DNA of 38,813 bases from an uncultured Bacilli bacterium (lineage in GTDB: Bacteria; Bacillota_I; Bacilli_A; RF39; UBA660). Positions 13,501-37,136 of the stretch are shown here, one piece after another. Positions within the stretch are counted from its first letter, which is position 1. Each line of letters starts with the position of its first letter. The stretch spans positions 1 through 38,813 of the forward strand of contig CASDHD010000001.1 of the NCBI GenBank assembly GCA_949280095.1, written 5' to 3'. A program made the position numbers and the translations under genes. The notes under the pieces are model-generated. The model saw only the letters and a list, made by a program, of their open reading frames with translations, did not search any database and was not told the origin of the DNA.

Positions 13501-16500
13501 AGAAATATTAAAACTTATAATGAAAATGGTACAACTAAATACTTTAATAAATATGAGCCTATAATAGTAAGCTTTGAAAGTACGAACACAACAAATTTCG
13601 AACCAATAAAGGCTGTTATTAATGGTGTTCTGTATCCTTTAACTAAAAAAGACAATGCTTACTATTTAACAATAAGTAGTGAAAGAACTTATGGAGTGAA
13701 AACAGGAAGACTAGAAAAAATTATATTAAGTAACTCAAAAGAAATCATTATTTCAGAGAATAATGAATTTAGACTTACTGTTCTAAAAGATAAACCAACA
13801 GTAGAACAATTTGGTTACAAAGAAAATATAGATGCTACAATATCTGCTTCATTTAAAGTAATAGATTTAGAAAATACAATAACAGGTGGAAAAGCTATAG
13901 TCCTTAAAAATGGTACTATTGTTAAAGAACAAGCTTTAGAAAATGGTCTAAATACAATTACTTTCATGCCAGAAGAAAATCAAAATTATATAGTTAAAGT
14001 AATAGCAGATTATGACTTAGATATGAACGTATTAGAAAGTGATGCCAATGAATATCATGATGTAACTTTGCTAGAAGCCGATATTACACTTGGAGCTCGT
14101 AAGTTTGAAATGAAAGACATCATTAGAACATCTATTTATAAACAAACGGATGATGGTGTTGTTGAAATAAGCAATTTAAGTGAAAGCGACCTTTCTAATT
14201 TAGACCAATATATTGCTAAAGTATACATGAAAGAAATGCCAACATTCTATACTAAAATAAATGGTTATAGAATAGAAGATAACCAATTAATATTAACTTT
14301 AGATTATGATAATGTTGTAGAATATAATGGTGAATCTAAAGTAGATGCCTTAGAAATTGTTTATGGTGCTATAAACGATGAGGGAGTAGCTGAAAATATT
14401 ACTTTGGAAGGATTAATTCGTGCGATGGAACAAAATCCAACAGGTACGTTTACGCTAACTCGTGACTATGATGCTTCTATTATTACAAGCAATGATATTA
14501 GTTTAGTTTCATCTTTTATGGGAACCTTAAACGGAAATGGTTATACAATACATAATTTATCTAAACCTTTATTTGGCACAATCGAATCAGCCACTATTGA
14601 AAATCTTATTTTAGATAGTCCAAAACTATCTGGAGTAAATAGTAGAGGAACAATCGCCAATACGGCAATGAATTCAACTATTTATAATGTTCATATAAAA
14701 GATTTAAACTTAATTAGTGGAACCAATCGTGTCGGTGGATTAATTGGAGAAGCTACGGCAACTACGTTTGACCAAAGTAGTGTTACGAATTTCCAAATCA
14801 CAACTTCTCTTCACATAAGAGTTGGTGGAATCGTTGGAAATATGACAGGTGGAGCAATTACCAATTGTTATGTAGAAGGAGATTTAAAATCAACTCAAAA
14901 TAAAGACGGAAATGGTATTAGTGGAGTTTTAGGAACTGGTGATGGAACAGACGTAATCACAATTGAAAACTGTATTACGAAAGTAACGTATACAAATAAT
15001 GTTAGTGCAAGACTAAATGGAGATATCGTAGGATTAGCATTAAATAATAACACAATCTTAAAAAATAATGTAAGTTTATCAACAGGAACTAATTTTTATA
15101 GCGTACATGGTTCTTCTATTAATTCATTATCTACTAATAACTATGAACTTGCTGATTCTGGATTAGTAAGTAATGCAAGTGGTGCTTATGTATCTCAAGT
15201 TACCAAAGAAGAACTTACAACTGAATTCTTTAAAAATACAGCAAATTTTGATGAAAATATTTGGGATTTATCTAATGTTTCCTATGATAAACCACCTGTC
15301 TTAAAAGTTACCGAAGTAGATGGAGAAGTAATAGATGAGGAAAGTTCAAACAATAATAAACTTTATATTCCAGATTATAGTAGAATAAGTAAAATAAGTG
15401 GATATACTATTTCTAAAGATATTCTATATCATAATATAAACAAATTAATGCCTTACTATGATGCAAAATACTTAATTGAAGATGGTCTAAAAATAAGCAA
15501 TGACCACGAATTAAATTCTAAAATAATAAAACATATCTTACCATATAGTAATAATAAATTAGTAACTTATTTGACAAGTCAAAATAATAACAGTATTACA
15601 AGTATAAAAATTGTATTTGATGATCAAACTACAAGTCAATATAACGTAACATTTAAAGAATTAAAACAAGATATTTCTATTTATGAAATAGAAGGATTAG
15701 GCATAGATTATGCTTACAATAACTATGTTATAAAAGATTCTGCATCTATTGTTGATGTAATTATAGACTACATAAATAGTGTTGATTACACAACTATCCT
15801 TGACCCACTTACTACTGCTGCAGATAGTAGGTTATACAAAGACCATTATAACGAAGTAATGAAACCACTTGCAGAAACAATTGCTCTACAACTATTACAA
15901 AATGATGGCAATAGTATACTAAACATGGATAGCGAACTTTTAAATAACAAGATAAAACAAGAACTAATCGATAGTGGTAGATTAGACAAAATCTTATACG
16001 CTTACAATTACTACCATAGATGGTACCATTTTGAAATAGGTGGAGCAAAAGTATCAGATCTTCTATTCTTTGAAGGAAAAATGTACAAAGACTCTATGAC
16101 GATTGACAACTTAACAGAAGAAGTACTAACAGGAAATTTAGGAACCAACGCAACACATACATTCTTCGCAAATAGTTTAAGTAAATATACAGGAAGTTCT
16201 GCCTTAACTTATTATCTAGATGGTGTAATCAGAAATATCGGTGGATATGAAGATATAAATGACTGGTTTACAGAACATTTCTCTTCCATCGGAATTTTAG
16301 CAGAAATACCAGTGGAAAATCATCCAGAAGTAAAATACCGTGCATGGGATAGATTAAAAGGGTTTCAAAACTTTATCCTTCCGTTATCAACATTACCAAA
16401 ATATGCAGGATATATTATATCAGGACCAGCCCAATTCCAAGTGGGGGCACAAAGAGTTTACATTGCCGATCCAACAACGGCATCTGGCCAAAATACGGTA

Positions 16501-19185
16501 AAAAATCATGTAAAAAATCATGTTGCTCTTATTAAAAGACAATTTGATACCATGGCTGGATCTTTCCATGTTGAAAGTTGGAATAACTTCACTATTATGG
16601 TTTATGATACAGTAAAAACGATTACAGGATACAAAACAAATTATTTCCCAGGAACAAATATTCCAATGGGAACCTCTCCTGTTACAACATGGAATAGAAG
16701 TGGAACGACAACGGAACCATTCTCTAAAAACTTCAATGAAGCGGTAGGAGCATGGCAATATGGTTCCGCAGCAGGTGTTGGTAATACTGCAGGATTCTTA
16801 TGGTTTATTGCAAGACCAGGACTAACAAACTACGATACTTGGACCCATGAATTTGAACATGCCCTTTACGATAAAATTATGTTGTTTAGAAAAGGGGCAA
16901 GATTACAACTAGAAACATATACAGAAGGAAATGTTCAGCAAAAAGAAACTTGGAGTAACAATAATATTAGTGGTTACGATGTCGGACCTTATTACTTCAA
17001 TTTTGCCTTTACCTTAGGAAAAGAAAGTATGGCAACCCAAAATTTAACACCAGAAAGAATTAATACGAGAGAAAAATTAGAAAATTATTTTAAAGGCCAA
17101 TTTGACGCCTTAGAACTTCTAGATTATGTTTCAGCGAAAGCATTCATTCAATTAACTCCAGAAGAACAAGCAAAAATCGCAACAAGAATGAATACATCGG
17201 CTGGTTGGAGTACATGGGGAACCATTACGAAAGAACAAGCCGAAGCCATGAACTTAACAACGTTAGAATCCCTTTGGGATAATCGAATTATGTTAAGACC
17301 GAATAATGCATGGGGAGTGAGTGTTCGAGGACTTGTACCAATCAACAGTATTGGTGCCAATGATTATGGTTATGAATCCATTTGGGTAACCCGTTGGTAT
17401 ATGGGGCATTACGACAATGGATATGCAGATGCGTTCTCCAATAAGAAAAACATGTTTGAAATGTTAGGCTATGCTGGAGTCGATGGTTATGTAACCTTTG
17501 GTAGTAAAATGAGTAGTTCTGATTTAGACGCCATTCAAAAAATAACACTCGCCAAAACAGGAACCGCCATGAACTGGAAAGAATACAGAATGAGTCGCTA
17601 TGCGGAAATTGAATCTAAACTTGATAACAAATATGTCAACATTGATTTAATGATTGAACAATTTGTCGATGCTTTAAGAAATGATGCAAAAAATGGCAAT
17701 CGAAACATTACAAGCGGAACCAATCTTCGTAAGATTTACTATCATTACTTAAAAAGAGTCACCAATGACTTTATAGATGACCCACTAGGAACCAACTTAG
17801 AAATGACACATATTAAAACGGCTGAAGAATTAGTAAATAAAATCAATGCAGAACCTTATGGATATTACATATTAGACAATGACATTGACTTTAGCGGAAT
17901 GACTCAAAATGTAACGCAAACATTTATGGGAAAACTAGATGGAAATGGTCATAAAATTATAGGAAATAAAATACCAATCTTCCAAAAAATTCGTTTTGGA
18001 TATGTAAAAGACTTAGTACTTGAAAGAACAGACATTCCAATGAATATAGCAAACGTGGGAGCCTTATCAGTAAGAACCGAATACAGTGTATTAGAAAACG
18101 TAAAAGCCAAAGAACTACAACTAAACTTTGGTGGAAGAAATGATGTAAGTTTAATTGGAGGATCTGTTGGAACAACTGTTACTAGTGGAATTGAAGTAGA
18201 AACCTTAAAAAATAAGATAACCAGTATAGAAGATTTCCAAAAATTAAATGAGAATCCGGGTGGTATCTACGTTTTAGAGGCAGATTTAGATTTCACAGGT
18301 TACACAGGAACTGGTTCAGTAATTACTACAACATTTACTGGAAAACTAAATGGAAATGGACATACCCTTTCCAACTTAAATAACTTATCATTATTTAATA
18401 CGATAACAGGAACTGTCGAAAATTTAAATATTCAAAACTTTACGAATATCGCTACATCTACTAGTGATGATATTTCGGCTTTTGCGAAACTTACAAACGG
18501 TGCTACAATTAGAAACTTGAAGTTTGACGGTATTACTTTAGAAGGAAGACATAGAGTAGCAGTTGTTGCATCATTTGATAATCAAAATTCTACATTTGAA
18601 AATATTTCTGTTAGAAATGCTAGTGTTAAAGCTACAGGTGTATATGTTTCAACGTTTATTGGTCGAAAATATGGTGGTACTGTCAAAAATGTATTTGTTG
18701 CAGGAAGTATCGAAATCGTCATGACCGAGAATGGTGGAATTGTTGGAGCTTTCCAAAAAGGTGGAACGATTGAGAATGTTATTTCAAAAGTTGATATTCA
18801 TAAAACTGGAAATACTTATAGTCCTGTTGCTAATAGTGAATTTAATGGTGGATTAATAGGAAATATTTATGATACACCAATGATTAAGAATTCTATAGCT
18901 TTAGGTAATATGGAAGGATTTGTAGATAGTGAAGGTGTAGAAAAAATTCCATATAAAGTAACAGGAGCTTTACCAGCTACGATTACTGCTACGATGGATA
19001 ATGTTTATGAATATTTAGGAAGTCTTGGATTCAGTAGTGTTACAGAAGAAACTTCAACAAGTTTAAAAGTTGTAACGGAAGAAGAAATTCATACAAAAGA
19101 ATTTTATCGAGATACATTACATTTTGATGAGACTATTTGGAATTTAGAAACTATAGAATCTAAGGGATATCCAGAGTTGAAATAA
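10555..19185 (+). CDS. Giant cell-surface ZmpA/ZmpB/ZmpC-like (peptidase M26) zinc metalloprotease with N-terminal cohesin-like and dockerin modules
   Basis: Signal peptide MKKRIMNVIALLMFLMFSVQNVSA. Cohesin-like N-terminal domain and Pro/Thr linker. Two TM helices (WILILILAQLLIVIGLYL and LWVLGFILTEFMGITGAYA). Dockerin type I duplicated Ca-loops (NGDSEINYADV and NMDGKLNVTDL). Four diverged roughly 200-aa repeat modules, each starting VLKDKP or NKRKP. GLUG-like VGGLIG/VGGIVG and G(T/K)LNGNG(Y/H) motifs. HEFEH zinc site at 16846-16860. Confidence 0.8.
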   Translation: MKKRIMNVIALLMFLMFSVQNVSASSSMDTNLTSSSIELKSNETVEVTFSFSNFREINKGINAYKGTLEYDKNIFEEVLQSDFVSQNNWEELKFNAANNQFIAYRKVGTKVGENVLKFTLKVKDNVEATKTIVKIKDLTVSEGKVDILLSDALVELNIVKEQQTIPTTPTAPNKPNAGGTINNSTNISGSLSGNKVETNTPTNPDYPKDDIKNDETQDETSSDKNNGFDVSKEETTPNTEEIQAKKTSHKFTWILILILAQLLIVIGLYLKYKSKDKNRTINLSLWVLGFILTEFMGITGAYAYDFSKKGELNGDSEINYADVSLLELHLINLKTLEEDKLEKADMNMDGKLNVTDLSILIQKIENTLEYDVEIASLELDNAYPNKMEDVVVRFNADVSFGANIQKIIMNNQEYEVEKEPNTALYMIKLNAGEHPGVKEYTITEALLDNDKKVKINYTFKMDVLKDKPSIENYYVEENKDDSKLILNFDVIDYENSIQSAYVEFYDESQTLITQEAIVKGKNQIEFSVEEAKEYLANIILNYKLSSSEEDDEHKGVESYEKELQLLIDYNLTIQNIKTYKGNQETTVFSKEDKVKLIFESTNATKHIPKSIKVGGKEYEVVEENNQYVAELDPLAELGSQTIAIEEVILSNGKKIELNENNTVTIQVNKRKPVVEDLSTAEFTEMNKLKVMFHLDDLDEAVTNVYIQVLDASDNEIDHLNLARNELGSDGIVNKFFTTRMTTKYKVKVFLTYNITGNDVDSVTDELVKEEIVEADPRVEIKSIIANSKYVEKGGVLKLTFDLDSNKEDDITRILINNIDCIAVKLDNGNYEATLNVGNSSGIYPLSITRFTYSNGDVATTDETVNVEVLKDKPQIVNFVQIDNLDTKEVTLRFDVLDEENSFISGKALLNLDGISVEKDIVKGHNEVTFQVEPSTKYTLKINATYDLDSNTLPGSPEEDNRVIDETLTTKEVELILDYELNIRNIKTYNENGTTKYFNKYEPIIVSFESTNTTNFEPIKAVINGVLYPLTKKDNAYYLTISSERTYGVKTGRLEKIILSNSKEIIISENNEFRLTVLKDKPTVEQFGYKENIDATISASFKVIDLENTITGGKAIVLKNGTIVKEQALENGLNTITFMPEENQNYIVKVIADYDLDMNVLESDANEYHDVTLLEADITLGARKFEMKDIIRTSIYKQTDDGVVEISNLSESDLSNLDQYIAKVYMKEMPTFYTKINGYRIEDNQLILTLDYDNVVEYNGESKVDALEIVYGAINDEGVAENITLEGLIRAMEQNPTGTFTLTRDYDASIITSNDISLVSSFMGTLNGNGYTIHNLSKPLFGTIESATIENLILDSPKLSGVNSRGTIANTAMNSTIYNVHIKDLNLISGTNRVGGLIGEATATTFDQSSVTNFQITTSLHIRVGGIVGNMTGGAITNCYVEGDLKSTQNKDGNGISGVLGTGDGTDVITIENCITKVTYTNNVSARLNGDIVGLALNNNTILKNNVSLSTGTNFYSVHGSSINSLSTNNYELADSGLVSNASGAYVSQVTKEELTTEFFKNTANFDENIWDLSNVSYDKPPVLKVTEVDGEVIDEESSNNNKLYIPDYSRISKISGYTISKDILYHNINKLMPYYDAKYLIEDGLKISNDHELNSKIIKHILPYSNNKLVTYLTSQNNNSITSIKIVFDDQTTSQYNVTFKELKQDISIYEIEGLGIDYAYNNYVIKDSASIVDVIIDYINSVDYTTILDPLTTAADSRLYKDHYNEVMKPLAETIALQLLQNDGNSILNMDSELLNNKIKQELIDSGRLDKILYAYNYYHRWYHFEIGGAKVSDLLFFEGKMYKDSMTIDNLTEEVLTGNLGTNATHTFFANSLSKYTGSSALTYYLDGVIRNIGGYEDINDWFTEHFSSIGILAEIPVENHPEVKYRAWDRLKGFQNFILPLSTLPKYAGYIISGPAQFQVGAQRVYIADPTTASGQNTVKNHVKNHVALIKRQFDTMAGSFHVESWNNFTIMVYDTVKTITGYKTNYFPGTNIPMGTSPVTTWNRSGTTTEPFSKNFNEAVGAWQYGSAAGVGNTAGFLWFIARPGLTNYDTWTHEFEHALYDKIMLFRKGARLQLETYTEGNVQQKETWSNNNISGYDVGPYYFNFAFTLGKESMATQNLTPERINTREKLENYFKGQFDALELLDYVSAKAFIQLTPEEQAKIATRMNTSAGWSTWGTITKEQAEAMNLTTLESLWDNRIMLRPNNAWGVSVRGLVPINSIGANDYGYESIWVTRWYMGHYDNGYADAFSNKKNMFEMLGYAGVDGYVTFGSKMSSSDLDAIQKITLAKTGTAMNWKEYRMSRYAEIESKLDNKYVNIDLMIEQFVDALRNDAKNGNRNITSGTNLRKIYYHYLKRVTNDFIDDPLGTNLEMTHIKTAEELVNKINAEPYGYYILDNDIDFSGMTQNVTQTFMGKLDGNGHKIIGNKIPIFQKIRFGYVKDLVLERTDIPMNIANVGALSVRTEYSVLENVKAKELQLNFGGRNDVSLIGGSVGTTVTSGIEVETLKNKITSIEDFQKLNENPGGIYVLEADLDFTGYTGTGSVITTTFTGKLNGNGHTLSNLNNLSLFNTITGTVENLNIQNFTNIATSTSDDISAFAKLTNGATIRNLKFDGITLEGRHRVAVVASFDNQNSTFENISVRNASVKATGVYVSTFIGRKYGGTVKNVFVAGSIEIVMTENGGIVGAFQKGGTIENVISKVDIHKTGNTYSPVANSEFNGGLIGNIYDTPMIKNSIALGNMEGFVDSEGVEKIPYKVTGALPATITATMDNVYEYLGSLGFSSVTEETSTSLKVVTEEEIHTKEFYRDTLHFDETIWNLETIESKGYPELK

Positions 19186-31333: not shown

Positions 31334-31514
31334 AATTTTATATTTATAGGTTGTGGATATTATGCAAGTAAGTAGGAATAGTAATTTGAAAATTCCCAAA
31401 CATATAGAAATTGCGGAAACTGAAATAAATAGTTTAGAAGATAAAATAGCTGTGAGGCAAGGTATTGCGATAGCGAATGATGAAAAAATTCGTAAGGAAT
31501 TTTTAAAAGATGAG

Positions 31515-31989
31515 ATGGACATAGAAGATAAAGAATGGAAAGAAATAGAAAAAATTCCTTCTAATGCTAATGATTTAATTGCTATAACTGTTGTGAAAAA
31601 ATTAGGGGCTTATGTTATTGCAGTAACGGAAAAATCACCTAAAAAATTTCGCGGCTTATGTTATTGCAGTAACGGAAAAATCACCTAAAAAATTTCGCGG
31701 AGTGTTTGTGAATAGAATGCAAAATTATTGTTTGGATACATTAGAACTTTTACTAGAGGCTAATTTTATTCGTATAGACTCTAAAGATAATAAAACAAAA
31801 AGAGAGGAGTTGCAAAAGGAAGCTATTGTAAAATTAAAGCTTCTAGGATATGTTGCTATGGTTTCTCTAAATGCTTCTTGTATTTTGACTAGACAGTATA
31901 AGCAAATATCTATGCAACTTGCAAAAGCAATCAATCTTATCATTGCTTGGAAAAAAAGCGATGATGAAAGGTTTAAAAAAAGAAATTAG
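31515..31989 (+). pseudogene. avd: DGR accessory variability determinant (Avd, four-helix-bundle / 23S rRNA-IVS-like protein), frameshifted by a 46-bp tandem duplication
   Basis: The two ORFs 31353..31688 (frame 0) and 31702..31989 (frame +1) fuse in frame if one 46-bp copy is removed. The fused product is ...DLIAITVVKKLGAYVIAVTEKSPKKFRGVFVNRMQNYCLDTLELLLEAN...LAKAINLIIAWKK... This resembles the Bordetella Avd pattern (..SIPRKHGVAREMFLKCLLGQVELFIVAG...ILGSWI.., quoted from memory). The start at M55 (31515) is a guess; the frame is open from 31353. Confidence 0.7.
31607..31698 (+). repeat. Perfect 46-bp tandem duplication inside avd
   Basis: ggcttatgttattgcagtaacggaaaaatcacctaaaaaatttcgc at 31607-31652 is repeated exactly at 31653-31698, followed by a further gg. 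46 is not a multiple of 3. Confidence 0.95.
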
Positions 31990-32061: not shown

Positions 32062-32141
32062 CGCCCGCGCTGTTAACTAAAATGGAAATAGAAATTGGAA
32101 CAATGTTAATAAACGTACTGGTGGGGCTCGCCCAGATTCAC
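32062..32141 (+). repeat. DGR template repeat (TR)
   Basis: 80 bp align without gaps to 33619-33698. Of 19 mismatches, 17 are at TR adenines. It is a GC-rich island in AT-rich sequence, has 7 AAY codons in the VR frame, and lies between avd and the RT. Confidence 0.9.
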
Positions 32142-32276
32142 TTTTGAAGAGATTTTTAATAAATCTAGAAAACGGATTCGAGAAATTTATTTTAGAAAAA
32201 ATAGGTCTATATCTTAAGGTGAAGGAATTTTCTTCTTTTCTATTCGCTATGAATTTATGCGTTTAGAAGAATATAA

Positions 32277-32348: not shown

Positions 32349-33269
32349 ATGAAATTAGAAGAGATTTTCACCTTTGAAAATTTATACCGAGCATATAAAA
32401 AATGTCGCAAAGGAAAGCAACATAAAGGAGAGGTTATTCGTTTTGAAACAAATCTATCAGTTAATTTAAGTAATATTAGAAGTGAATTGTTAAGTAAAAC
32501 ATATAAACTTGGAAAATATAAGAAATTTTATATTTATGAGCCAAAAGAAAGGCTTATTGAAGCATTGCCTTTTAAAGATAGAGTAGTTGTTCGATGTTTT
32601 TGTGATACTTCATTACGTCCTAAACTTGAAAAAAAACTAATATTTGATAATTGTGCTTGTCGTAAAGAAAAAGGAACACATTTTGCTATTCAAAGGTTGC
32701 ATCGCTTTTTAAGAAAAGAATTTAAAATAGAACAAAACAATCATTTTTATTTTTTAAAATGTGATATCAAAAAATTTTTTCCTAGTATCCATCATGATAT
32801 TTTATTAAATCTTTTAAAGGAAGTTGATTTTTCAGTGGAAGAAATGTGGCTAATAAAAAAACTTGTCAAAGACCAACCTGACAAAGCAAATATTGGACTT
32901 CCTTTAGGTAATCAGTCTAGTCAATGGTTTGCTTTATTTTATTTGAATAAAGTGGATCATTTTATTAAGGAAAAATTACAGATAAAATCTTACGTTCGTT
33001 ATATGGATGACATGATTTTGCTTCATAAAGATAAAGAAGTTTTAAAAAGATGTAAAACAGAAATTGAAATAATGATTAAAGATTTATTAGAATTAGAATT
33101 GAATTCTAAAACACAGATTGGACAAGTTAAAAATGGAATTGATTTTTTAGGATATCGCCATATCATGAAAGAAAAAGGAAGAATTATTATAAAATTAAGG
33201 GCTTCTTCTAAACATAGAATGAAAAAACACATTAAAACAATTCATAAGCTTATAAAAAAGGAATTGTAG
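32349..33269 (+). CDS. DGR-type reverse transcriptase. As written the frame stops at 33269; the C-terminal segment continues in the -1 frame to 33388.
   Basis: GGAGG lies 5 nt upstream of ATG 32349. RT motifs: PKERLIEALPFKDRVV, DIKKFFPSI, LGNQSSQ (the DGR-specific [LIV]GxxxSQ) at 32904-32924, YMDD at 33000-33011, and FLGY. Confidence 0.9.
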   Translation: MKLEEIFTFENLYRAYKKCRKGKQHKGEVIRFETNLSVNLSNIRSELLSKTYKLGKYKKFYIYEPKERLIEALPFKDRVVVRCFCDTSLRPKLEKKLIFDNCACRKEKGTHFAIQRLHRFLRKEFKIEQNNHFYFLKCDIKKFFPSIHHDILLNLLKEVDFSVEEMWLIKKLVKDQPDKANIGLPLGNQSSQWFALFYLNKVDHFIKEKLQIKSYVRYMDDMILLHKDKEVLKRCKTEIEIMIKDLLELELNSKTQIGQVKNGIDFLGYRHIMKEKGRIIIKLRASSKHRMKKHIKTIHKLIKKEL

Positions 33270-33388
33270 ATGGAAAGTATGTGTCAATAAGAAAGAATGC
33301 TTTTTCTAACCATATTAAGCATACGAACGAATCTTCTCATTGGAAAGAGGAAATTTTTTCCAAAATGGATGAAACTGTGATAAAATAA
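33254..33388 (+). other. -1-frame continuation encoding the missing RT C-terminal (thumb-end) segment. The junction is an A_AAA_AAG heptamer.
   Basis: Zero frame: ...ctt atA AAA AAG gaa ttg tag. The -1 frame from 33254 reads KKGIVDGKYVSIRKNAFSNHIKHTNESSHWKEEIFSKMDETVIK*. Its HxxH(T/A)(N/D) pattern resembles my recollection of the C-terminal ..SWLGHARHADT.. region of the Bordetella phage RT. Confidence 0.6.
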
Positions 33389-33412: not shown

Positions 33413-35491
33413 ATGAGTAATTTAACATTTTTAACAGAGGAACAAATCTTCGGAAAAAGTTGTCTAGAAATATTTAATAAATATGGTACAGAATGTGCAA
33501 TTACAGATTTCTCTATTCTTTTAGGAGGATATGTATCGAATTTTTGTTATACTAGTGAAGGAGATTCGCAAGAAAATCGTACTGGTTGGTGGTGGACTAA
33601 GACACCTTATGGAAATAACGCCCGCGTTGTTGACTGGCCTGGACTTAGGCGTTGGAGCGATGTTGATAGGCGTGCTGGTGGGGCTCGCCCAGCTTTACCT
33701 TACTCAGTAATCCAATCCATCTCCTCGAACAGAGTGAGAGGGACTAATGGTATTTTGGAAGTAGAGTATGGAGAATATCCACAAACTATAGTTCCAGAAT
33801 CACTTTCAAATTTGTTAGAACAAAATTTTCAATATAAAACACTCACAAAGACTGGAAAAGAGTATATTACAGATTCTGTACAGTGTGATTGTTATTCTAC
33901 TTCTTTTCAACCACGAAACCATATTGAGTTTAGTTATAAAGGAAAAAAATTCATTCGCTTTGTAGCAGATTTAAATTGTGAGGATAGAAATTTGTCCGAT
34001 GGCCGTCAGGTGAAAGTTGGTAGTCCTTATTGGATAGAAGTAGAACCTATTAAATGGTTAATTTCTGAGAAAGAAAATATAGCAGTTTGTAAAAAAATTA
34101 TTTTTGCAGGAGTTCAATTTAATCAAGAGCAAAATTATAAAGGGAATTTTGAGAATACCGATATTTATAAATTTTTAGAAAATTGTTTTTCGAAAGATAT
34201 AGAAGCTATTAACATCAATACACCTTTAGAAAATAAAGAAACAAAACCAACCCGCTTACAAAAAATGAATCCTGATACGACCAAAGTAAATGAACGAAGA
34301 AATATGACGGCAACAGAAAAAATTCAAGATTGGATCGAATCAGGGCAATCTGTTTTGCTGCGTGGACCCTCTGGTATCGGAAAAACAGAAAGACTGAAAA
34401 CTTTGTACCCAGATTTAATTTATATCAAACTAACAAACAATATGTTTCCAGAAAAAGTAGTAGGGTCGATGAATTTCCAAACGGGACAAAACATTCCTCC
34501 TGATTTCTATAAACAAGCAATGCTCGATTGTGCAACTCCAGAAGAACAAAAATTAATCAAAGAAAATGTCCAAAATTTGTATGACTTAGCAGATAAAATT
34601 TATGAACGATCAAAAGAAAGCAAAGGAAAAATTGTCATCTTGCTCGATGAACTTTTAAATGTGACACCTGCGGTTCAATCTCTGGTCTATACCTTAGTAC
34701 TAAATCGACTAGTAGAAATAGGAAAGGGTTTGAAATTACCTGAAAATGTGGTAGTGGTAGCAACAGGAAACCAAAAAAAATACTCTATTGTAGCAAAAGA
34801 CATAGCAGAACCTCTTGAAAAACGTTTTGATCATATTTTTGATATGGAGCCAAAAGTAGGAGAATGGTTATATGACTATGCGATTCCTAATAAAATTCAT
34901 CCTTCTGTTATTGGTTTTATTATGTCCAAGTATTTAAGTACAGGAAAAAGTGAAGAAATAAAAGATATGGGATACTTCTATGAAGAACCAGAAATTGGAG
35001 AAATGCATCCTGATAAATATGGTTGTAATGGAAGAACCAATGACCCCAGAGGATGGGTATCCATATCCAATACACTGTATAAGTTTGAAAAAAACTTACA
35101 AACAGGCAAATACATAGGAAAAAATGTGGAAAATATATTAGAAACTTCTATAAATACCAAATTGCGTTCTGAGTGGGCAAGTGCTTTCTTTAACTTTTAT
35201 AATTTACCTACTTTATCTGTCAAAGAAGTCGTAGAAAAAAACTATGGAGAGAGTGCTTTACCAAAAACGAGCAACGAACGATTTGCGACTCTTACTTCTC
35301 TTTTAATGGCAAACAAAGACGAAATAAAAGCATGTAGAGAATTTGTAAGAAACTATTGTGATCCTGAATTTTTAGAACTCTATGACTTCTGTTGGATAGG
35401 CAAAGATATAGCAAGAATGGAAAAAATTATGGAGTTAAAATCATTAGAAAATAATGTAGAACTTCCAAGTGAAAGGAGAGCAATGGCGTGA
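33413..35491 (+). CDS. DGR target: cytoplasmic protein with an N-terminal VR-bearing ligand-binding-like domain fused to a MoxR/AAA_5-type AAA+ ATPase
   Basis: No signal peptide or TM helix. N-terminal WWWTKTP...ARVV...GGARPAL motif resembles DUF1566/DUF6273-type (C-type-lectin-fold-like) modules. The VR covers codons 70-96. Walker A GPSGIGKT at 34364-34387, Walker B IVILLDE, and PENVVVVATGNQ. Confidence 0.85.
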   Translation: MSNLTFLTEEQIFGKSCLEIFNKYGTECAITDFSILLGGYVSNFCYTSEGDSQENRTGWWWTKTPYGNNARVVDWPGLRRWSDVDRRAGGARPALPYSVIQSISSNRVRGTNGILEVEYGEYPQTIVPESLSNLLEQNFQYKTLTKTGKEYITDSVQCDCYSTSFQPRNHIEFSYKGKKFIRFVADLNCEDRNLSDGRQVKVGSPYWIEVEPIKWLISEKENIAVCKKIIFAGVQFNQEQNYKGNFENTDIYKFLENCFSKDIEAININTPLENKETKPTRLQKMNPDTTKVNERRNMTATEKIQDWIESGQSVLLRGPSGIGKTERLKTLYPDLIYIKLTNNMFPEKVVGSMNFQTGQNIPPDFYKQAMLDCATPEEQKLIKENVQNLYDLADKIYERSKESKGKIVILLDELLNVTPAVQSLVYTLVLNRLVEIGKGLKLPENVVVVATGNQKKYSIVAKDIAEPLEKRFDHIFDMEPKVGEWLYDYAIPNKIHPSVIGFIMSKYLSTGKSEEIKDMGYFYEEPEIGEMHPDKYGCNGRTNDPRGWVSISNTLYKFEKNLQTGKYIGKNVENILETSINTKLRSEWASAFFNFYNLPTLSVKEVVEKNYGESALPKTSNERFATLTSLLMANKDEIKACREFVRNYCDPEFLELYDFCWIGKDIARMEKIMELKSLENNVELPSERRAMA
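33619..33698 (+). repeat. DGR variable repeat (VR), within codons 70-96 of the target gene
   Basis: See the TR entry. The 3' 18 bp CTGGTGGGGCTCGCCCAG (33675-33692) is identical to TR 32118-32135, an IMH-like GC-rich element. Confidence 0.9.
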
Positions 35492-35877
35492 AAAAAGAAC
35501 TAATCGAATTGCAATTTGGTAGTTGTGCTACTTGTGTTGTTATTTTAGATGAATATTATAAAGAATTAGGACCTACTATTTTCATGGAAGGAAATATGAG
35601 TGATACAAACTTATACGCTTGTTCCTATGAAAATCCTATATTTAAAGAAAAATTAGAAACGATGGCGAAAAACTACGAGCAAGTTTATTTTGTCATTCGA
35701 CATATAGAACAAATTACAGAAGTAGAGCAAAATAGGTACATTGCCCTTGTAAAAGATAGAGAGTTTTGTGGATTTCAAATTCCTGATAATGTAGTAGTAG
35801 TGTTTACCGTTGGAGAAGAAATGGATATAAAGAAAATATCCAAAGAACTCTATCATTTCTGTGTAATAGCAATATAA
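35488..35877 (+). CDS. Small cytoplasmic protein, possibly a degenerate Walker-less AAA+ fragment
   Basis: GTG 35488 overlaps the target stop (GTGA), with aaaggagag 9 nt upstream. VYFVIRHIEQITEVEQNRYIALVKDREFCGFQIPDNVVVVFTVG aligns with the Walker B to sensor-1 stretch of the upstream ATPase. Confidence 0.6.
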   Translation: MKKELIELQFGSCATCVVILDEYYKELGPTIFMEGNMSDTNLYACSYENPIFKEKLETMAKNYEQVYFVIRHIEQITEVEQNRYIALVKDREFCGFQIPDNVVVVFTVGEEMDIKKISKELYHFCVIAI

Positions 35878-35885
35878 GGTGACGC

Positions 35886-37136
35886 ATGAATATAGAGAAG
35901 AATCTAATTGAAGAAACACTTAAGATTATTATTATACGTTATTCAGAGTTTGCAAGTGAAATTGCCTCCTGTAAATTCGAGTATCGTACCGATTTAAAAT
36001 ACAAAACTGCTGCAACAGACGGAAAAGATGTCTTTATAGATCCAGAATATTTTACAAGTTTAGATGAAGAAGGAAGAGCCTTTTTACTAGCACATGAACT
36101 AATGCATAAAAAGTTTTTGCACCATCTGCGAATCGAAAAAAATGGTGTAAAAAGAGATCCAGAAGTCTGGAACGAAGCCACCGATGCTGTAAATAATGCC
36201 AACTTAGAGCGTGATGGATTTAAAATTGCGGAAGGGTATATCAATCGCCCTGAAGCACTTCACTATTCAGCAGATGAGTTTTATGAAATCTTATTAAAAG
36301 AAAAACAAGAAAATCCAAACAAAAAAGAATATACGCATTGCGATGACCATACCCTTTGGGAAGAAGTGCCAAAAAATACAAAAGAAATTCCAGAAATTGA
36401 TGAAAGAAAAGAATTTGCAGAAAACAGAAGAATCCGTATGGAAAAAGCAAAAGAAAACTATGAACGCCTGAAAGAAGAAATCTTAAAAAAAGAATCCTCA
36501 AGCGAAGAAGTAAAAGTAGGAGACATTGGAGAAAGTGCGTCCCCTATAGATTGGAAAATTTTAGTTAGAAGAGAATTTGATAAGCAAGAAACGCTTTGGA
36601 GTAGGAGAAGAAGTATAGAAGAAAATAACTATGCGTATCGTTTAGAAGAAATAGACAGAGAAGATGAAGCAGAAACAGAAGTATTAATTGATATTTCAGG
36701 GTCTGTCAGCTTAGATTTAATAAGAGCCTTCTTAAGAAATTTAAAGCCACTTATTAAAGAATCAAAATTAAAAGTAGGTTGTTTTAATGAAAAATTCTGG
36801 GGGATGGTAGAAATAAAATCAGTGCGTGATATCGATCAGTTCGTATTGCCAAAAGGTTCAACTGTGGGGGCTTGGACACAAGATTGTGACCTTGCGGTTC
36901 GTTCTTTTTCAAAAAAAAGAGAAGTCAACAAATTTATTTTTACAGATGGTTATCTTGTACCTAGAAATATGCCTAGAAAAGATTTAAATAATGAAAATGT
37001 AATATGGCTTGTTTATGGAAATAAAAACTTCAAACCTTGTTGTGGAAAAGTTATTTTTATTAATGAAAAACAATTAAAAGCAATGTATTGTTATCAAGGA
37101 TATACAGATACAAATAGCCAGTCTAGATTTATTTAG
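35886..37136 (+). CDS. Predicted metallopeptidase (DUF2201_N-like HExxH) fused to a vWA domain; the MoxR partner protein
   Basis: RBS aaggtga. TAATDGKDVFIDPEYF, HELMH at 36093-36107, WNEATDAVNN, MIDAS DISGS at 36690-36704, and FTDGY. Confidence 0.8.
   Translation: MNIEKNLIEETLKIIIIRYSEFASEIASCKFEYRTDLKYKTAATDGKDVFIDPEYFTSLDEEGRAFLLAHELMHKKFLHHLRIEKNGVKRDPEVWNEATDAVNNANLERDGFKIAEGYINRPEALHYSADEFYEILLKEKQENPNKKEYTHCDDHTLWEEVPKNTKEIPEIDERKEFAENRRIRMEKAKENYERLKEEILKKESSSEEVKVGDIGESASPIDWKILVRREFDKQETLWSRRRSIEENNYAYRLEEIDREDEAETEVLIDISGSVSLDLIRAFLRNLKPLIKESKLKVGCFNEKFWGMVEIKSVRDIDQFVLPKGSTVGAWTQDCDLAVRSFSKKREVNKFIFTDGYLVPRNMPRKDLNNENVIWLVYGNKNFKPCCGKVIFINEKQLKAMYCYQGYTDTNSQSRFI

What the first reader, a model, noticed from the sequence alone, without database searches (positions are those of the whole stretch)
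33413..37136. Cytoplasmic DGR-diversified sensor fused to a MoxR-type AAA+ ATPase, operonic with a HExxH-peptidase/vWA partner: a candidate hypervariable intracellular conflict system
Seen in the sequence:
- The DGR target (692 aa) has no signal peptide or TM helix.
- Its VR is at codons 70-96 in an N-terminal WWW...ARVV...GGARPAL domain. DGR targets usually carry the VR at the extreme C-terminus.
- Residues from about 300 to 500 form an AAA_5/MoxR-like ATPase (GPSGIGKT at 34364-34387, IVILLDE, PENVVVVATGNQ).
- A 129-aa ORF is translationally coupled to it (GTGA overlap at 35488).
- Eight nt after that ORF comes a 416-aa protein with a DUF2201_N-like HELMH metallopeptidase motif (36093-36107) and a vWA MIDAS motif DISGS (36690-36704).

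Established knowledge:
- MoxR AAA+ ATPases function as couples with vWA proteins.
- Characterised DGR targets are mostly surface or phage receptor-binding proteins.
- As I recall, comparative-genomic work from the Aravind group predicted conflict systems that combine MoxR-vWA couples with RT-based diversification, mainly in multicellular bacteria.

Inference:
- Here the hypervariable ligand-binding module is fused directly to the ATPase in an AT-rich Bacillota genome, and the vWA partner carries a protease.
- This suggests an intracellular, diversifiable receptor that senses an invader or self-derived ligand and gates an ATPase- and vWA-controlled peptidase effector.
- I am not aware of an experimentally characterised example of this architecture.
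Basis: partly seen in the sequence, partly recalled or inferred. Interest (0 to 1): 0.92.

Follow-up and report, generated by a model that had tools for sequence, protein, structure and literature searches.

The report
DGR-diversified lectin–ATPase with peptidase–vWA partner
An uncultured gut Bacillota chromosome carries a reverse-transcriptase mutagenesis cassette (here apparently broken) aimed at the ligand-binding tip of a cytoplasmic ATPase, which sits in an operon with a zinc-peptidase/vWA protein; this is a large, undescribed family that looks like a programmable intracellular sensor–protease, but its function is untested.

Summary
All ORFs, motifs and coordinates check out. TR 32062-32144 and VR 33619-33701 differ at 20 positions, 17 of them TR adenines.

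The 692-aa target has three parts:
- a lectin-type module of about 268 aa carrying the VR;
- an AAA_5/midasin/MoxR-class ATPase with intact catalytic motifs;
- a helical tail.

The 416-aa partner is a minigluzincin-like HExxH peptidase plus a probable vWA domain with an invariant MIDAS motif.

ATPase–129aa–peptidase/vWA is a conserved unit in uncultured gut Bacilli and Clostridia. An avd–TR–RT cassette lies directly upstream in 24 of 56 testable loci. The ATPase and the peptidase-vWA protein are homologous to an adjacent gene pair in N4-like and jumbo phages, already noted by Iyer et al. 2021.

The N-terminal VR is explained by an apparently circularly permuted DUF6273 lectin domain.

In this window the DGR looks dead: avd is split by a 46-nt duplication, RT is frameshifted, and the VR is identical in four samples.

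A conflict or sensor role is plausible by domain logic, but it is untested and has no defence-island context. I rate it a new variant of a known kind (DGR-diversified NTPase-coupled sensors; Kaur 2020, Doré 2024).

The parts
31353..31989 (+). avd (DGR accessory gene), split into two ORFs (31353-31688 and 31702-31989) by a frameshifting 46-nt tandem duplication
   Evidence: One search finds the duplication (31596-31641 / 31642-31687, 93% identical); the intact 197-aa Avd of L003 aligns to the window in two frames; near-identical contig L080 lacks the duplication and one search shows an intact 193-aa avd there; phrog_3206 'Avd protein of DGR', 3.2e-9.
31596..31687 (+). 46-nt tandem duplication inside avd (the lesion)
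32062..32144 (+). Template repeat (TR), non-coding, rich in AAY codons and containing an in-frame TAA
   Evidence: Related loci have a TR-like best match between avd and RT.
32349..33388 (+). DGR reverse transcriptase. The main ORF runs 32349-33269; the last ~40 aa continue in the -1 frame to 33388. The shift is at the A-run / A_AAA_AAG heptamer at 33254-33260.
   Evidence: RVT_1 6.4e-18; phrog_1423 8.8e-106; the L003 RT aligns in two frames; relatives outside this lineage (about 25 loci) read through in one frame.
33413..35491 (+). 692-aa DGR target: N-terminal lectin-type module (res 1-268), linker, AAA_5/MoxR-class ATPase (about res 300-480) and helical C-terminal domain
33619..33701 (+). 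Variable repeat (VR), codons 70-96, ending in a GC-rich stretch identical to the TR (CTGGTGGGGCTCGCCCAG), which I take to be the IMH
   Evidence: It is the only hypervariable patch in the family alignment. Within one 90% cluster, 12 of 27 VR columns vary against 56 of 715 elsewhere.
33413..34216 (+). Sensor module (res 1-268): DUF6273-like C-type-lectin domain, apparently circularly permuted or split by a beta-rich insert (about res 105-200)
   Evidence: pLDDT 84-95. DUF6273 profile positions 125-168 of 172 match res 55-96; in tandem-module protein P0243 the DUF6273 match spans a module boundary; permuted constructs match DUF6273 across positions 3-168; 2793 cluster representatives carry the module.
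34364..34387 (+). Walker A, GPSGIGKT (K324)
   Evidence: Invariant in 28 homologues.
34646..34651 (+). Walker B D412-E413. Sensor-1 N453 and the candidate arginine finger R471 (PLEKRFDH) lie downstream.
   Evidence: All are invariant. D412/E413, N453 and R471 are also invariant across the phage ATPases.
35488..35877 (+). 129-aa protein, start overlapping the target's stop (GTGA); no family assignment
   Evidence: Searches give no hits. It is conserved downstream of the ATPase in 45 of 54 loci. There is a weak hhalign match of res 76-121 to ATPase res 417-464 (E 1e-3, probability 22%).
35886..37136 (+). 416-aa protein: N-terminal minigluzincin-like Zn-peptidase (about res 1-150, HELMH at 36093-36107), charged helical linker, C-terminal vWA-like domain (about res 262-400, MIDAS DISGS at 36690-36704)
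   Evidence: DUF2201_N 1.3e-16; selecase MJ1213 7.7e-5; selecase fold, probability 1.0, plus weak vWA fold hits. H70, H74, H79, D269, S271, G272, S273 and D354 invariant. DUF2201 VWA-like in 16 of 28 homologues; phrog_1314 1.6e-41 over the full length.

Best explanation
What it is (shown). A chromosomal cassette of about 5.8 kb in an uncultured, AT-rich gut Bacillota genome. Its closest relatives are MAGs labelled Tenericutes or Bacilli. It consists of a DGR (avd–TR–RT) followed by a three-gene operon:
1. a cytoplasmic fusion of a DGR-diversified, DUF6273-type lectin module to an AAA_5/midasin/MoxR-class ATPase;
2. a 129-aa protein of unknown fold;
3. a minigluzincin-type zinc peptidase fused to a MIDAS-bearing vWA-like domain.

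The ATPase and the peptidase-vWA protein descend from, or share ancestry with, an adjacent MoxR plus peptidase-vWA pair found in N4-like and jumbo phages.

How it most likely works (inferred).
- The ATPase forms a ring that displays several variable lectin heads.
- The vWA domain of the partner docks on the ring through its MIDAS, as in other MoxR–vWA couples.
- Binding of a cytoplasmic ligand to the lectin heads is coupled, through ATP hydrolysis, to remodelling that unleashes or directs the otherwise latent peptidase. The ligand is most plausibly a protein of an invading phage or mobile element.
- The peptidase then cleaves either the bound ligand or a host target.
- The DGR re-writes about 12 lectin residues, so the population samples new specificities.

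In this strain the DGR is probably inactive (avd duplication, RT frameshift, VR fixed), which leaves a fixed-specificity version of the effector operon.
For: - DGR anatomy and adenine-specific TR/VR differences.
- The VR is the only hypervariable patch in the family. It varies between strains of one 90% cluster (12/27 against 56/715 columns, Fisher p = 8e-7).
- ATPase: AAA_5 and AAA are above their cut-offs. Walker A, Walker B, sensor 1 and the Arg finger are invariant. The profile hits midasin at 1.5e-11, MoxR 2R44 at 1.5e-4 and McrB. The best viral fold hits include several 'dynein-related AAA' phage ATPases.
- Peptidase: DUF2201_N and the selecase fold, with HExxH invariant.
- vWA: invariant MIDAS residues, DUF2201 hits in 16 of 28 homologues, weak fold hits that include the NorQD complex.
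- Operon conservation: 50/54 and 45/54 loci; RT adjacent in 24/56.
- Phage homology and adjacency of the pair. The pair is described as a MoxR–vWA chaperone–cochaperone pair with an N-terminal metallopeptidase in PMC7824862.
- Cytoplasmic location.
- Cellular, not viral: 96 hits in genomes against one distant hit in IMG/VR.
- Conceptual precedent for DGR-diversified lectin sensors coupled to MoxR/vWA or STAND NTPases: PMC7159879 and PMC10907252.
Against: - There are no functional data.
- No protein matches a known defence family apart from trivial P-loop hits (PADLOC).
- Flanking genes are housekeeping, not defence islands.
- More than half of the loci have no adjacent RT.
- The phage homologues were proposed to act in virion assembly, not sensing.
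- The vWA assignment is below formal thresholds for this protein, and its model is poor there (pLDDT 30-70).
- Ring formation, vWA docking and peptidase latency are all inferred from other systems.
- In this window the DGR is damaged, so diversification cannot be ongoing here unless the lesions are assembly errors.
Confidence: 0.45

Rival explanations
1. A housekeeping-type MoxR–vWA chaperone/maturation machine with an attached processing peptidase, used to assemble or process a cellular complex. The lectin module would be a substrate or adaptor clamp, and the DGR would tune binding to a variable but endogenous or nutritional ligand rather than to invaders.
For: - From my own knowledge: characterised MoxR–vWA couples (NorQ/NorD, CbbQ/CbbO, RavA/ViaA) are maturation or remodelling factors.
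- NorQD appears among the weak fold hits.
- Flanking genes are housekeeping.
- Many loci have no RT.
- The phage homologues were proposed as assembly chaperones with peptidolytic processing.
Against: - No conserved client gene lies next to the operon; the flanks differ in every lineage examined.
- Hypermutation of a binding surface is hard to reconcile with a fixed endogenous client.
- The VR differs completely between strains at 96-99% overall identity.
- The sensor module is also fused to ankyrin, LRR and DUF4116 repeats elsewhere. That shuffling pattern is typical of recognition modules.
Confidence: 0.2
2. A domesticated or still selfish phage/MGE module. In this reading the ATPase and peptidase-vWA act for a mobile element (host takeover, anti-defence, superinfection exclusion or particle assembly), and the DGR retargets it to variable host factors.
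For: - Both proteins have full-length PHROG families.
- The pair is adjacent in Schitoviridae next to rIIA/rIIB and replication genes. Vequintavirinae and jumbo phages carry homologues of one or both proteins.
- From my own knowledge: DGRs are frequent on gut phages.
- The cassette sits in different chromosomal contexts in different lineages.
- An integrase lies about 9 kb upstream in L086.
Against: - Only one distant relative was found in 2.9 million IMG/VR contigs, against 96 in genome contigs.
- No phage structural or integration genes flank the window locus.
- The same site between nrtR and a small exporter gene upstream side is occupied in other samples of this lineage.
- Identity to the phage proteins is only 22-27%.
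Confidence: 0.15
3. In this particular genome the feature is a decaying relic. The DGR is dead, and the operon may be drifting towards loss, so nothing is being diversified or sensed.
For: - avd is split by a 46-nt duplication that is absent from a 99.9%-identical contig.
- RT is frameshifted, and sister contigs carry a second RT indel.
- The first 600 nt of the target, including the VR, are identical in four samples.
- Relative L004 has lost RT and the target's 5' end through a TR/VR deletion.
Against: - The three effector ORFs are intact, and all catalytic residues are conserved.
- The RT lesion is a 1-nt change in an A-run and could be a sequencing error or be bypassed at the A_AAA_AAG heptamer.
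- RT-less loci are common and keep intact operons, so the effector module evidently works without a cis DGR.
Confidence: 0.15

Closest known systems
VMAP-ternary and related MoxR–vWA conflict systems with DGR-diversified FGS/C-lectin domains (Kaur, Burroughs, Iyer, Aravind 2020, PMC7159879; Doré et al. 2024, PMC10907252)
   Same: A DGR (avd/TR/RT) diversifies a C-type-lectin-fold domain of a cytoplasmic protein that works with a MoxR-class AAA+ ATPase, a vWA protein and a peptidase. In both, the proposed logic is a hypervariable recognition module coupled to NTPase-gated effector activation.
   Different: - There, the lectin (FGS type, VR at the extreme C-terminus) is fused to the vWA component, and a separate VMAP protein carries a trypsin or caspase peptidase.
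- Here, the lectin is DUF6273-type, permuted, N-terminal and fused to the ATPase itself.
- Here, the vWA protein carries a minigluzincin metallopeptidase, and no VMAP is present.
- The hosts here are unicellular, small-genome gut Bacillota, not cyanobacteria, actinobacteria or purple sulfur bacteria.
Phage MoxR AAA+ ATPase plus metallopeptidase–vWA pair (Iyer et al. 2021, PMC7824862; PHROG 1297 and 1314; N4-like Schitoviridae, Vequintavirinae, jumbo phages)
   Same: Both proteins are homologous: 3.6e-33 and 1.6e-41 to the PHROG profiles, and 1e-6 to 1e-25 in direct profile searches. The gene order is the same, often with a small ORF in between.
   Different: - The phage ATPases are stand-alone proteins of about 350-410 aa, with no lectin module and no DGR.
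- The small intervening ORFs are not detectably homologous to the 129-aa protein.
- The proposed phage role is virion assembly and processing.
CPR/Patescibacteria DGR targets with AAA/midasin-like ATPase domains (Paul et al. 2017 as cited in PMC10907252; Wu et al. 2018, PMC5758913, UVR4/category g)
   Same: A DGR-diversified domain and a midasin/AAA-type P-loop ATPase sit in one polypeptide.
   Different: - In the CPR proteins the NTPase lies upstream and the VR is C-terminal.
- No peptidase-vWA partner is reported.
- The RT clade and the hosts differ.
- No sequence comparison was made here, because no CPR sequences were available.
DUF6273 C-lectin DGR targets of gut phages (tentaclins / Mtd-like receptor-binding proteins; PMC10743442, bioRxiv 10.1101/2024.10.15.618418)
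   Same: The VR sequence class (…WW…ARVV…G…GxRPAL) and the lectin-type domain match. The VR maps to the C-terminal end of the DUF6273 profile.
   Different: - Those are extracellular virion proteins with the domain in canonical order and the VR at the C-terminus.
- Here the domain appears permuted or split, the protein is cytoplasmic, and the module is followed by an ATPase.

Membership tests
Diversity-generating retroelement | TR/VR repeat pair whose differences are concentrated at TR adenines | tested here: met
   83-nt repeat with 20 mismatches, 17 of them at TR adenines; 17 of the 26 TR adenines are substituted.
Diversity-generating retroelement | DGR-type reverse transcriptase adjacent to the TR | tested here: met
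   RVT_1 6.4e-18 and phrog_1423 8.8e-106. The gene is frameshifted about 40 aa before its end.
Diversity-generating retroelement | Avd accessory protein | tested here: met
   phrog_3206 'Avd protein of DGR' 3.2e-9. NCBIfam DivGenRetAVD scores only 15.4 bits against a cut-off of 80. The gene is disrupted by a 46-nt duplication.
Diversity-generating retroelement | Ongoing diversification of the VR | tested here: inconclusive
   Family level: VR-specific variation within a 90% cluster. This lineage: the VR is identical in four samples and avd/RT are damaged.
C-type-lectin-fold DGR target domain (DUF6273 / DUF1566 / Fib_succ_major class) | Profile match of the VR-bearing domain, with the VR at the end of the domain | tested here: inconclusive
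   - The window protein has no hit.
- 8 of 28 homologues hit DUF6273 (best 1.8e-4, below the gathering score), with profile positions 125-168 of 172 on res 55-96.
- A permuted construct of the window protein scores 17.4 bits over profile positions 19-168. That of homologue P0003 scores 24.9 bits, above the 23.5 cut-off.
- No PDB sequence hit.
- The fold search was dominated by the ATPase.
AAA_5 / MoxR-class AAA+ ATPase | Pfam AAA_5 above the gathering score | tested here: met
   24.2 bits against 22; all 28 of 28 homologues match.
AAA_5 / MoxR-class AAA+ ATPase | Walker A, Walker B, sensor 1 and arginine finger | tested here: met
   K324, D412/E413, N453 and R471 are invariant in 28 homologues. 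D412/E413, N453 and R471 are also conserved in the phage ATPases.
AAA_5 / MoxR-class AAA+ ATPase | Closest solved relatives belong to the midasin/MoxR/McrB group | tested here: met
   With a profile that includes the phage homologues: midasin 1.5e-11, MoxR 2R44 1.5e-4 over positions 17-180, McrB 3e-4. ClpB and ClpC also appear at around 1e-5.
MoxR proper (Pfam AAA_3) | AAA_3 above the gathering score | tested here: not met
   16.2 bits against a cut-off of 27. The protein is therefore MoxR-class in the broad sense only.
AAA_5 / MoxR-class AAA+ ATPase | Helix-2 insert and pre-sensor-1 beta-hairpin | not testable with these tools
   Candidate segments (res 341-366 and 433-445) are modelled with low confidence (pLDDT below 50 at 354-366).
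vWA domain with MIDAS | DxSxS…T…D metal-site motif | tested here: met
   D269, S271, S273 and D354 are invariant, and T331 is nearly invariant, in 28 homologues.
vWA domain with MIDAS | Profile or fold match to vWA | tested here: inconclusive
   - No Pfam hit for the window protein.
- DUF2201 'VWA-like' in 16 of 28 homologues, best 0.0037.
- Fold hits to Ro60, Rpn10, VWF A2 and NorQD at E 0.07-0.6, on a low-confidence model.
DUF2201_N / minigluzincin-like metallopeptidase | Profile match and HExxH | tested here: met
   DUF2201_N 61.4 bits against 23.2. Selecase MJ1213 7.7e-5 by sequence and probability 1.0 by fold. H70 and H74 invariant, E71 nearly invariant, H79 invariant.
VMAP-ternary conflict system (Kaur 2020) | Separate VMAP protein, with the effector/FGS domain fused to the vWA component | tested here: not met
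   The lectin is fused to the ATPase, not to the vWA protein. The third gene (129 aa) matches nothing. No VMAP-specific profile was available, so absence rests on the architecture.
Phage MoxR plus metallopeptidase-vWA pair (PHROG 1297 / 1314) | Both proteins match the phage families and are adjacent | tested here: met
   3.6e-33 and 1.6e-41. Direct profile hits to five phage ATPases and four phage peptidase-vWA proteins. Adjacency in phage records.
Known anti-phage defence systems (PADLOC-DB 2.0) | Match of any of the three effector proteins to a defence family | tested here: not met
   Only partial P-loop-level hits (DolB 8.9e-5 with no significant stretch; GajB 4e-4). Nothing for the 129-aa and 416-aa proteins.

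The most novel reading that the evidence does not exclude
A previously undescribed family, abundant in gut microbiomes, of DGR-programmable cytoplasmic receptors. A permuted lectin head that can be rewritten by reverse transcription sits directly on a MoxR-class motor, and that motor controls a latent metallopeptidase. The system would have been exapted from a phage chaperone pair and would act as an anticipatory, antibody-like intracellular immune sensor in unicellular, reduced-genome Bacillota. This would extend 'hypervariable NTPase-coupled immunity' beyond multicellular bacteria.
Probability: 0.3. Interest if true: 0.85.

Novelty: new variant of a known kind. Interest (0 to 1): 0.62.

Why it matters
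DGR targets are mostly surface or virion receptor-binding proteins. Cytoplasmic, NTPase-coupled targets have been proposed as 'antigen sensors' only from comparative genomics of multicellular or CPR bacteria, and none has been tested.

This family offers a compact cassette of five genes in under 6 kb. It is highly conserved and very abundant in human and animal gut metagenomes: more than 1,700 clusters for the target and more than 2,000 for the partner. Its enzymatic read-outs are clear (ATPase, zinc peptidase, MIDAS), and it has natural RT-plus and RT-minus variants. That makes the 'programmable intracellular sensor' idea directly testable.

It also links such systems to a widespread phage MoxR–vWA–peptidase pair of unknown function, and it shows a lectin-domain permutation that lets a VR sit near an N-terminus.

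If it proves to be only a chaperone or processing machine, it would still be the first case of a DGR retargeting a cytoplasmic AAA+ machine.

Tried and rejected
- Sequence search of the whole target profile and of the N-module profile against PDB: nothing useful.
- Fold search of the full-length target model: only generic AAA+ hits, and the N-module never surfaced.
- NCBIfam: no informative hits for the three effector proteins.
- PADLOC: no defence family.
- Rfam on the whole window: nothing.
- Promoter and terminator scan: not above shuffled expectation and uninformative.
- No hairpin downstream of the VR.
- The 129-aa protein as a degenerate AAA+ fragment: only a weak hhalign signal (E 1e-3 for one comparison, probability 22%). 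Kept as a lead, not a finding.
- The 129-aa protein as a homologue of the small ORFs between the phage ATPase and peptidase genes: rejected.
- The cassette as prophage cargo: rejected for lack of viral-contig relatives and of phage neighbours.
- A defence-island context: not seen in five neighbourhoods apart from one ToxN gene.
- Programmed -1 frameshifting in RT: considered because the shift falls on A_AAA_AAG. Relatives outside this lineage encode the RT in one frame, so a 1-nt deletion or sequencing error is the simpler reading.

Full report
**1. Observation.**
The three ORFs are exactly as described: 33413-35491 (692 aa), 35488-35877 (129 aa; its GTG overlaps the TGA of the first) and 35886-37136 (416 aa, 8 nt downstream). 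From those coordinates GPSGIGKT, HELMH and DISGS lie at the stated positions.

An 83-nt imperfect direct repeat links 32062-32144 (between avd and RT) to 33619-33701 (codons 70-96 of the 692-aa ORF). Of its 20 mismatches, 17 are at adenines of the upstream copy. Read in the VR frame, that copy is a string of AAY codons with an in-frame TAA. This is the signature of a DGR template/variable repeat pair.

None of the three proteins has a hydrophobic segment that could serve as a signal peptide or TM helix. The highest 19-residue hydropathy is 1.55, in the Walker B strand.

**2. The DGR and its state in this genome.**
RT is identified by RVT_1 (6.4e-18) and phrog_1423 (8.8e-106). Avd is identified by phrog_3206. 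Both genes are damaged here.
- *avd.* It is split by a 46-nt tandem duplication (31596-31641 / 31642-31687). The duplication is absent from contig L080, which is 99.9% identical over the upstream 3.3 kb and encodes an intact 193-aa Avd.
- *RT.* Its last ~40 residues are in the -1 frame. The shift falls in the A-run / A_AAA_AAG heptamer at 33254-33260. Relatives outside this lineage, about 25 loci, read through in one frame. The sister contigs L080-L082 share this shift and carry a further 1-nt deletion.
- *VR.* The first 600 nt of the target, VR included, and the TR are identical in the window and in three contigs from other sequencing runs.

In this lineage, then, the DGR looks recently inactivated and the VR frozen, unless the lesions are assembly errors.

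At family level diversification is evident.
- In an alignment of 28 homologues at 58-70% identity, the VR is the only hypervariable patch.
- Among ten members of one 90%-identity cluster, 12 of 27 VR columns vary against 56 of 715 elsewhere (odds ratio 9.4, p = 8e-7). They form three wholesale VR haplotypes.

**3. The target protein.**
The AlphaFold model (28-sequence alignment, mean pLDDT 77) shows a confident N-terminal module (res 1-260, pLDDT 84-95), a disordered linker, an α/β P-loop core (about res 310-480) and a helical C-terminal region.

*The ATPase.*
- AAA_5 and AAA are just above their Pfam thresholds. AAA_5 matches all 28 homologues. AAA_3 (MoxR proper) is below threshold.
- Much stronger is phrog_1297 'ATPase', at 3.6e-33 over residues 299-653.
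- A profile that combines the family with five phage ATPases hits midasin (1.5e-11), the MoxR structure 2R44 (1.5e-4, positions 17-180) and McrB. Clp-type ATPases follow.
- The best viral fold matches include several phage 'dynein-related AAA' ATPases.
- K324, D412/E413, N453 and R471 (PLEKRFDH) are invariant, so the enzyme should be active.

I therefore accept 'MoxR-class' in the broad AAA_5/midasin sense.

*The N-module.*
- The window protein has no Pfam hit. In 8 of 28 homologues the VR segment (res 55-96) matches positions 125-168 of the 172-position DUF6273 profile. Two preprints and papers describe DUF6273 as a C-lectin-like DGR target domain of gut phages with the VR at its C-terminus.
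- A profile of the module finds 2,793 cluster representatives (E up to 0.001). They include stand-alone and tandem copies and fusions to ankyrin, DUF4116 and LRR repeats.
- In a tandem-module protein, the complete DUF6273 match (positions 5-170, above threshold) spans the end of one module and the start of the next.
- Artificial constructs that join res 200-266 to res 1-100 gain or extend DUF6273 matches. The window construct scores 17.4 bits over positions 19-168. The P0003 construct scores 24.9 bits over positions 3-168, above the 23.5 cut-off.

The simplest reading is a circularly permuted lectin domain (or one split by a beta-rich insert of about 100 aa) whose VR-bearing half comes first. 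That explains why the VR lies near the N-terminus. This is an inference. I could not fold the module alone.

**4. The partner proteins.**
*The 416-aa protein.*
- It matches DUF2201_N at 1.3e-16.
- It matches the minigluzincin selecase (MJ1213) by sequence (7.7e-5) and by fold (probability 1.0).
- H70, H74 and H79 are invariant and E71 nearly so.

*Its C-terminal third.*
- It is modelled poorly.
- It does have a β-α-β pattern and invariant D269-x-S271-G-S273 and D354.
- 16 of 28 homologues give sub-threshold DUF2201 'VWA-like' hits.
- Weak fold hits go to vWA-containing proteins (Ro60, Rpn10, VWF A2) and to the NorQD complex.
- The whole protein matches phrog_1314 end to end at 1.6e-41. That family is mis-annotated as 'HNH endonuclease'.

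I regard vWA/MIDAS as probable, not proven.

*The 129-aa protein.*
It matches nothing. One weak profile–profile signal aligns it to the α3–sensor-1 segment of the ATPase.

**5. Conservation and distribution.**
Homologues of the target number more than 1,751 clusters, and those of the partner more than 2,021. In species-representative genomes they occur in MAGs labelled uncultured Bacilli/'Tenericutes', Clostridia, Christensenella and Eubacteriales, many from animal and human gut samples.

I surveyed 77 loci by tblastn.
- The peptidase-vWA gene follows the ATPase gene in 50 of 54 loci with enough downstream sequence.
- The 129-aa gene follows in 45 of 54.
- avd–TR–RT lies immediately upstream in 24 of 56 loci with at least 3 kb upstream. 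The RT is full-length in 19.
- Of the 32 RT-less loci, 15 keep the N-module. The other 17 show no match to its first part, so their N-terminus differs or is truncated.
- Sixteen loci carry two or three tandem target paralogues.

Flanking genes differ between lineages and are housekeeping. Here they are nadD, cinA, nadK and nrtR on one side and a small exporter and a histidine phosphatase on the other. Elsewhere they include pyruvate kinase, ftsEX and uvrAB. Only one distant relative exists in 2.9 million IMG/VR contigs. The cassette is therefore cellular and compact, and it is not part of recognisable defence islands or prophages.

**6. Relation to phages.**
tblastn and profile searches find both proteins in phages.
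- In Schitoviridae the two genes are neighbours. In Alteromonas phage PT15-A5 the order is rIIA, rIIB, ATPase, metallopeptidase. In Vibrio SBP1 it is 'MoxR-like ATPase', a small ORF, then 'metallopeptidase'. Delftia RG-2014 has a similar layout.
- Vequintavirinae carry the ATPase; in phiTE a more distant peptidase-vWA relative lies two genes downstream.
- The peptidase-vWA protein also hits jumbo phages.

Iyer et al. [quoted passage not shown] So the effector core is a known, uncharacterised module. What is new is its cellular version with a DGR-diversified lectin on the ATPase.

**7. Mechanism.**
*Shown:* domain composition, intact catalytic residues, operon conservation, DGR targeting of the lectin tip, and cytoplasmic location.

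*Inferred from established knowledge of MoxR–vWA couples and of autoinhibited minigluzincins:*
- an ATPase ring presenting variable lectin heads;
- MIDAS-mediated docking of the partner;
- ligand-dependent, ATP-driven activation or targeting of the peptidase.

Assigning this to defence against invaders follows the logic of Kaur 2020 and Doré 2024. It is not supported by context or by any defence-family match. I put it at about 0.45. The rivals are a cellular chaperone/processing role (0.2), an MGE-serving role (0.15) and, for this copy, a decaying relic (0.15).

**8. Novelty.**
Full-text searches combining DGR with MoxR/vWA, DUF2201, AAA_5 or DUF6273 found no description of this architecture. 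The large DGR surveys mention only the following:
- three N-terminal VRs and CPR 'midasin' targets;
- CPR lectin–AAA fusions;
- cellular targets that are mostly membrane-anchored or carry a signal peptide.

The concept is already published and the effector pair is known from phages. I therefore class this as a new variant of a known kind, of real but moderate interest (0.62). The score is tempered by the dead DGR in this particular window and by the complete absence of functional evidence.

Noticed in passing
window 31596-31687: A perfect-register 46-nt tandem duplication (93% identical copies) splits avd. It is absent from contig L080, which is 99.9% identical upstream. This is either a very recent inactivating event or an assembly artefact.
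   Followed up: yes
window 33254-33260: The RT frameshift falls exactly on an A_AAA_AAG heptamer, the classic -1 slippery sequence. Relatives outside this lineage encode the RT in a single frame, so a 1-nt deletion in an A-run is more likely than programmed frameshifting. Sister contigs L080-L082 carry a second indel near window 33198.
   Followed up: partly
L004 6873-7030 (CANSRH010000022.1, 'uncultured Tenericutes' MAG): avd is followed directly by the TR-upstream spacer fused to a VR-like sequence and then the rest of the target. RT and the target's first ~86 codons are missing. This is the product expected from homologous recombination between TR and VR, and it is one route by which these DGRs self-destruct.
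   Followed up: partly
window 34160-34330 versus L080 5749-5922: The window and L080 are identical over the first 600 nt of the target, but in the stretches displayed they diverge sharply with many indels in the linker between the lectin module and the ATPase, and they remain less than fully identical downstream. This is a mosaic pattern that suggests recombination within the gene.
   Followed up: no
P0243, P0247, P0305; P0241-P0389: The ~268-aa lectin module is a widespread unit (2,793 representatives at 50% clustering). It occurs alone, in tandem, and fused to DUF4116 repeats, ankyrin repeats or LRRs, so it is shuffled among several predicted intracellular scaffolds besides the ATPase.
   Followed up: partly
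L001 8001-14765, L085 6907-13591, L031: Many Clostridia loci have two or three tandem target paralogues sharing one peptidase-vWA gene, with an extra ~155-aa ORF before the 129-aa homologue and no RT within 7-10 kb. Even so, the VR differs between strains of the same 90% cluster, which suggests a trans-acting DGR elsewhere in those genomes.
   Followed up: partly
L001 15037-15447: A ToxN (type III toxin/Abi) gene lies 270 nt downstream of the peptidase-vWA gene. It is the only defence-related neighbour seen in five neighbourhoods.
   Followed up: no
window 10555-19185 (+): A 2,876-aa ORF with Peptidase_M26_N (IgA1-specific metalloendopeptidase N-terminal region; 7.4e-42, three stretches) and a type I dockerin. 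This is a giant putative IgA-protease-like surface protein in a gut bacterium.
   Followed up: partly
PHROG phrog_1314; GenBank records such as NC_068555.1, OZ196439.1: The phage peptidase-vWA family is annotated 'HNH endonuclease' in PHROGs, and that label has propagated into RefSeq phage records. The profile and the HExxH/MIDAS motifs indicate a metallopeptidase-vWA protein instead.
   Followed up: partly
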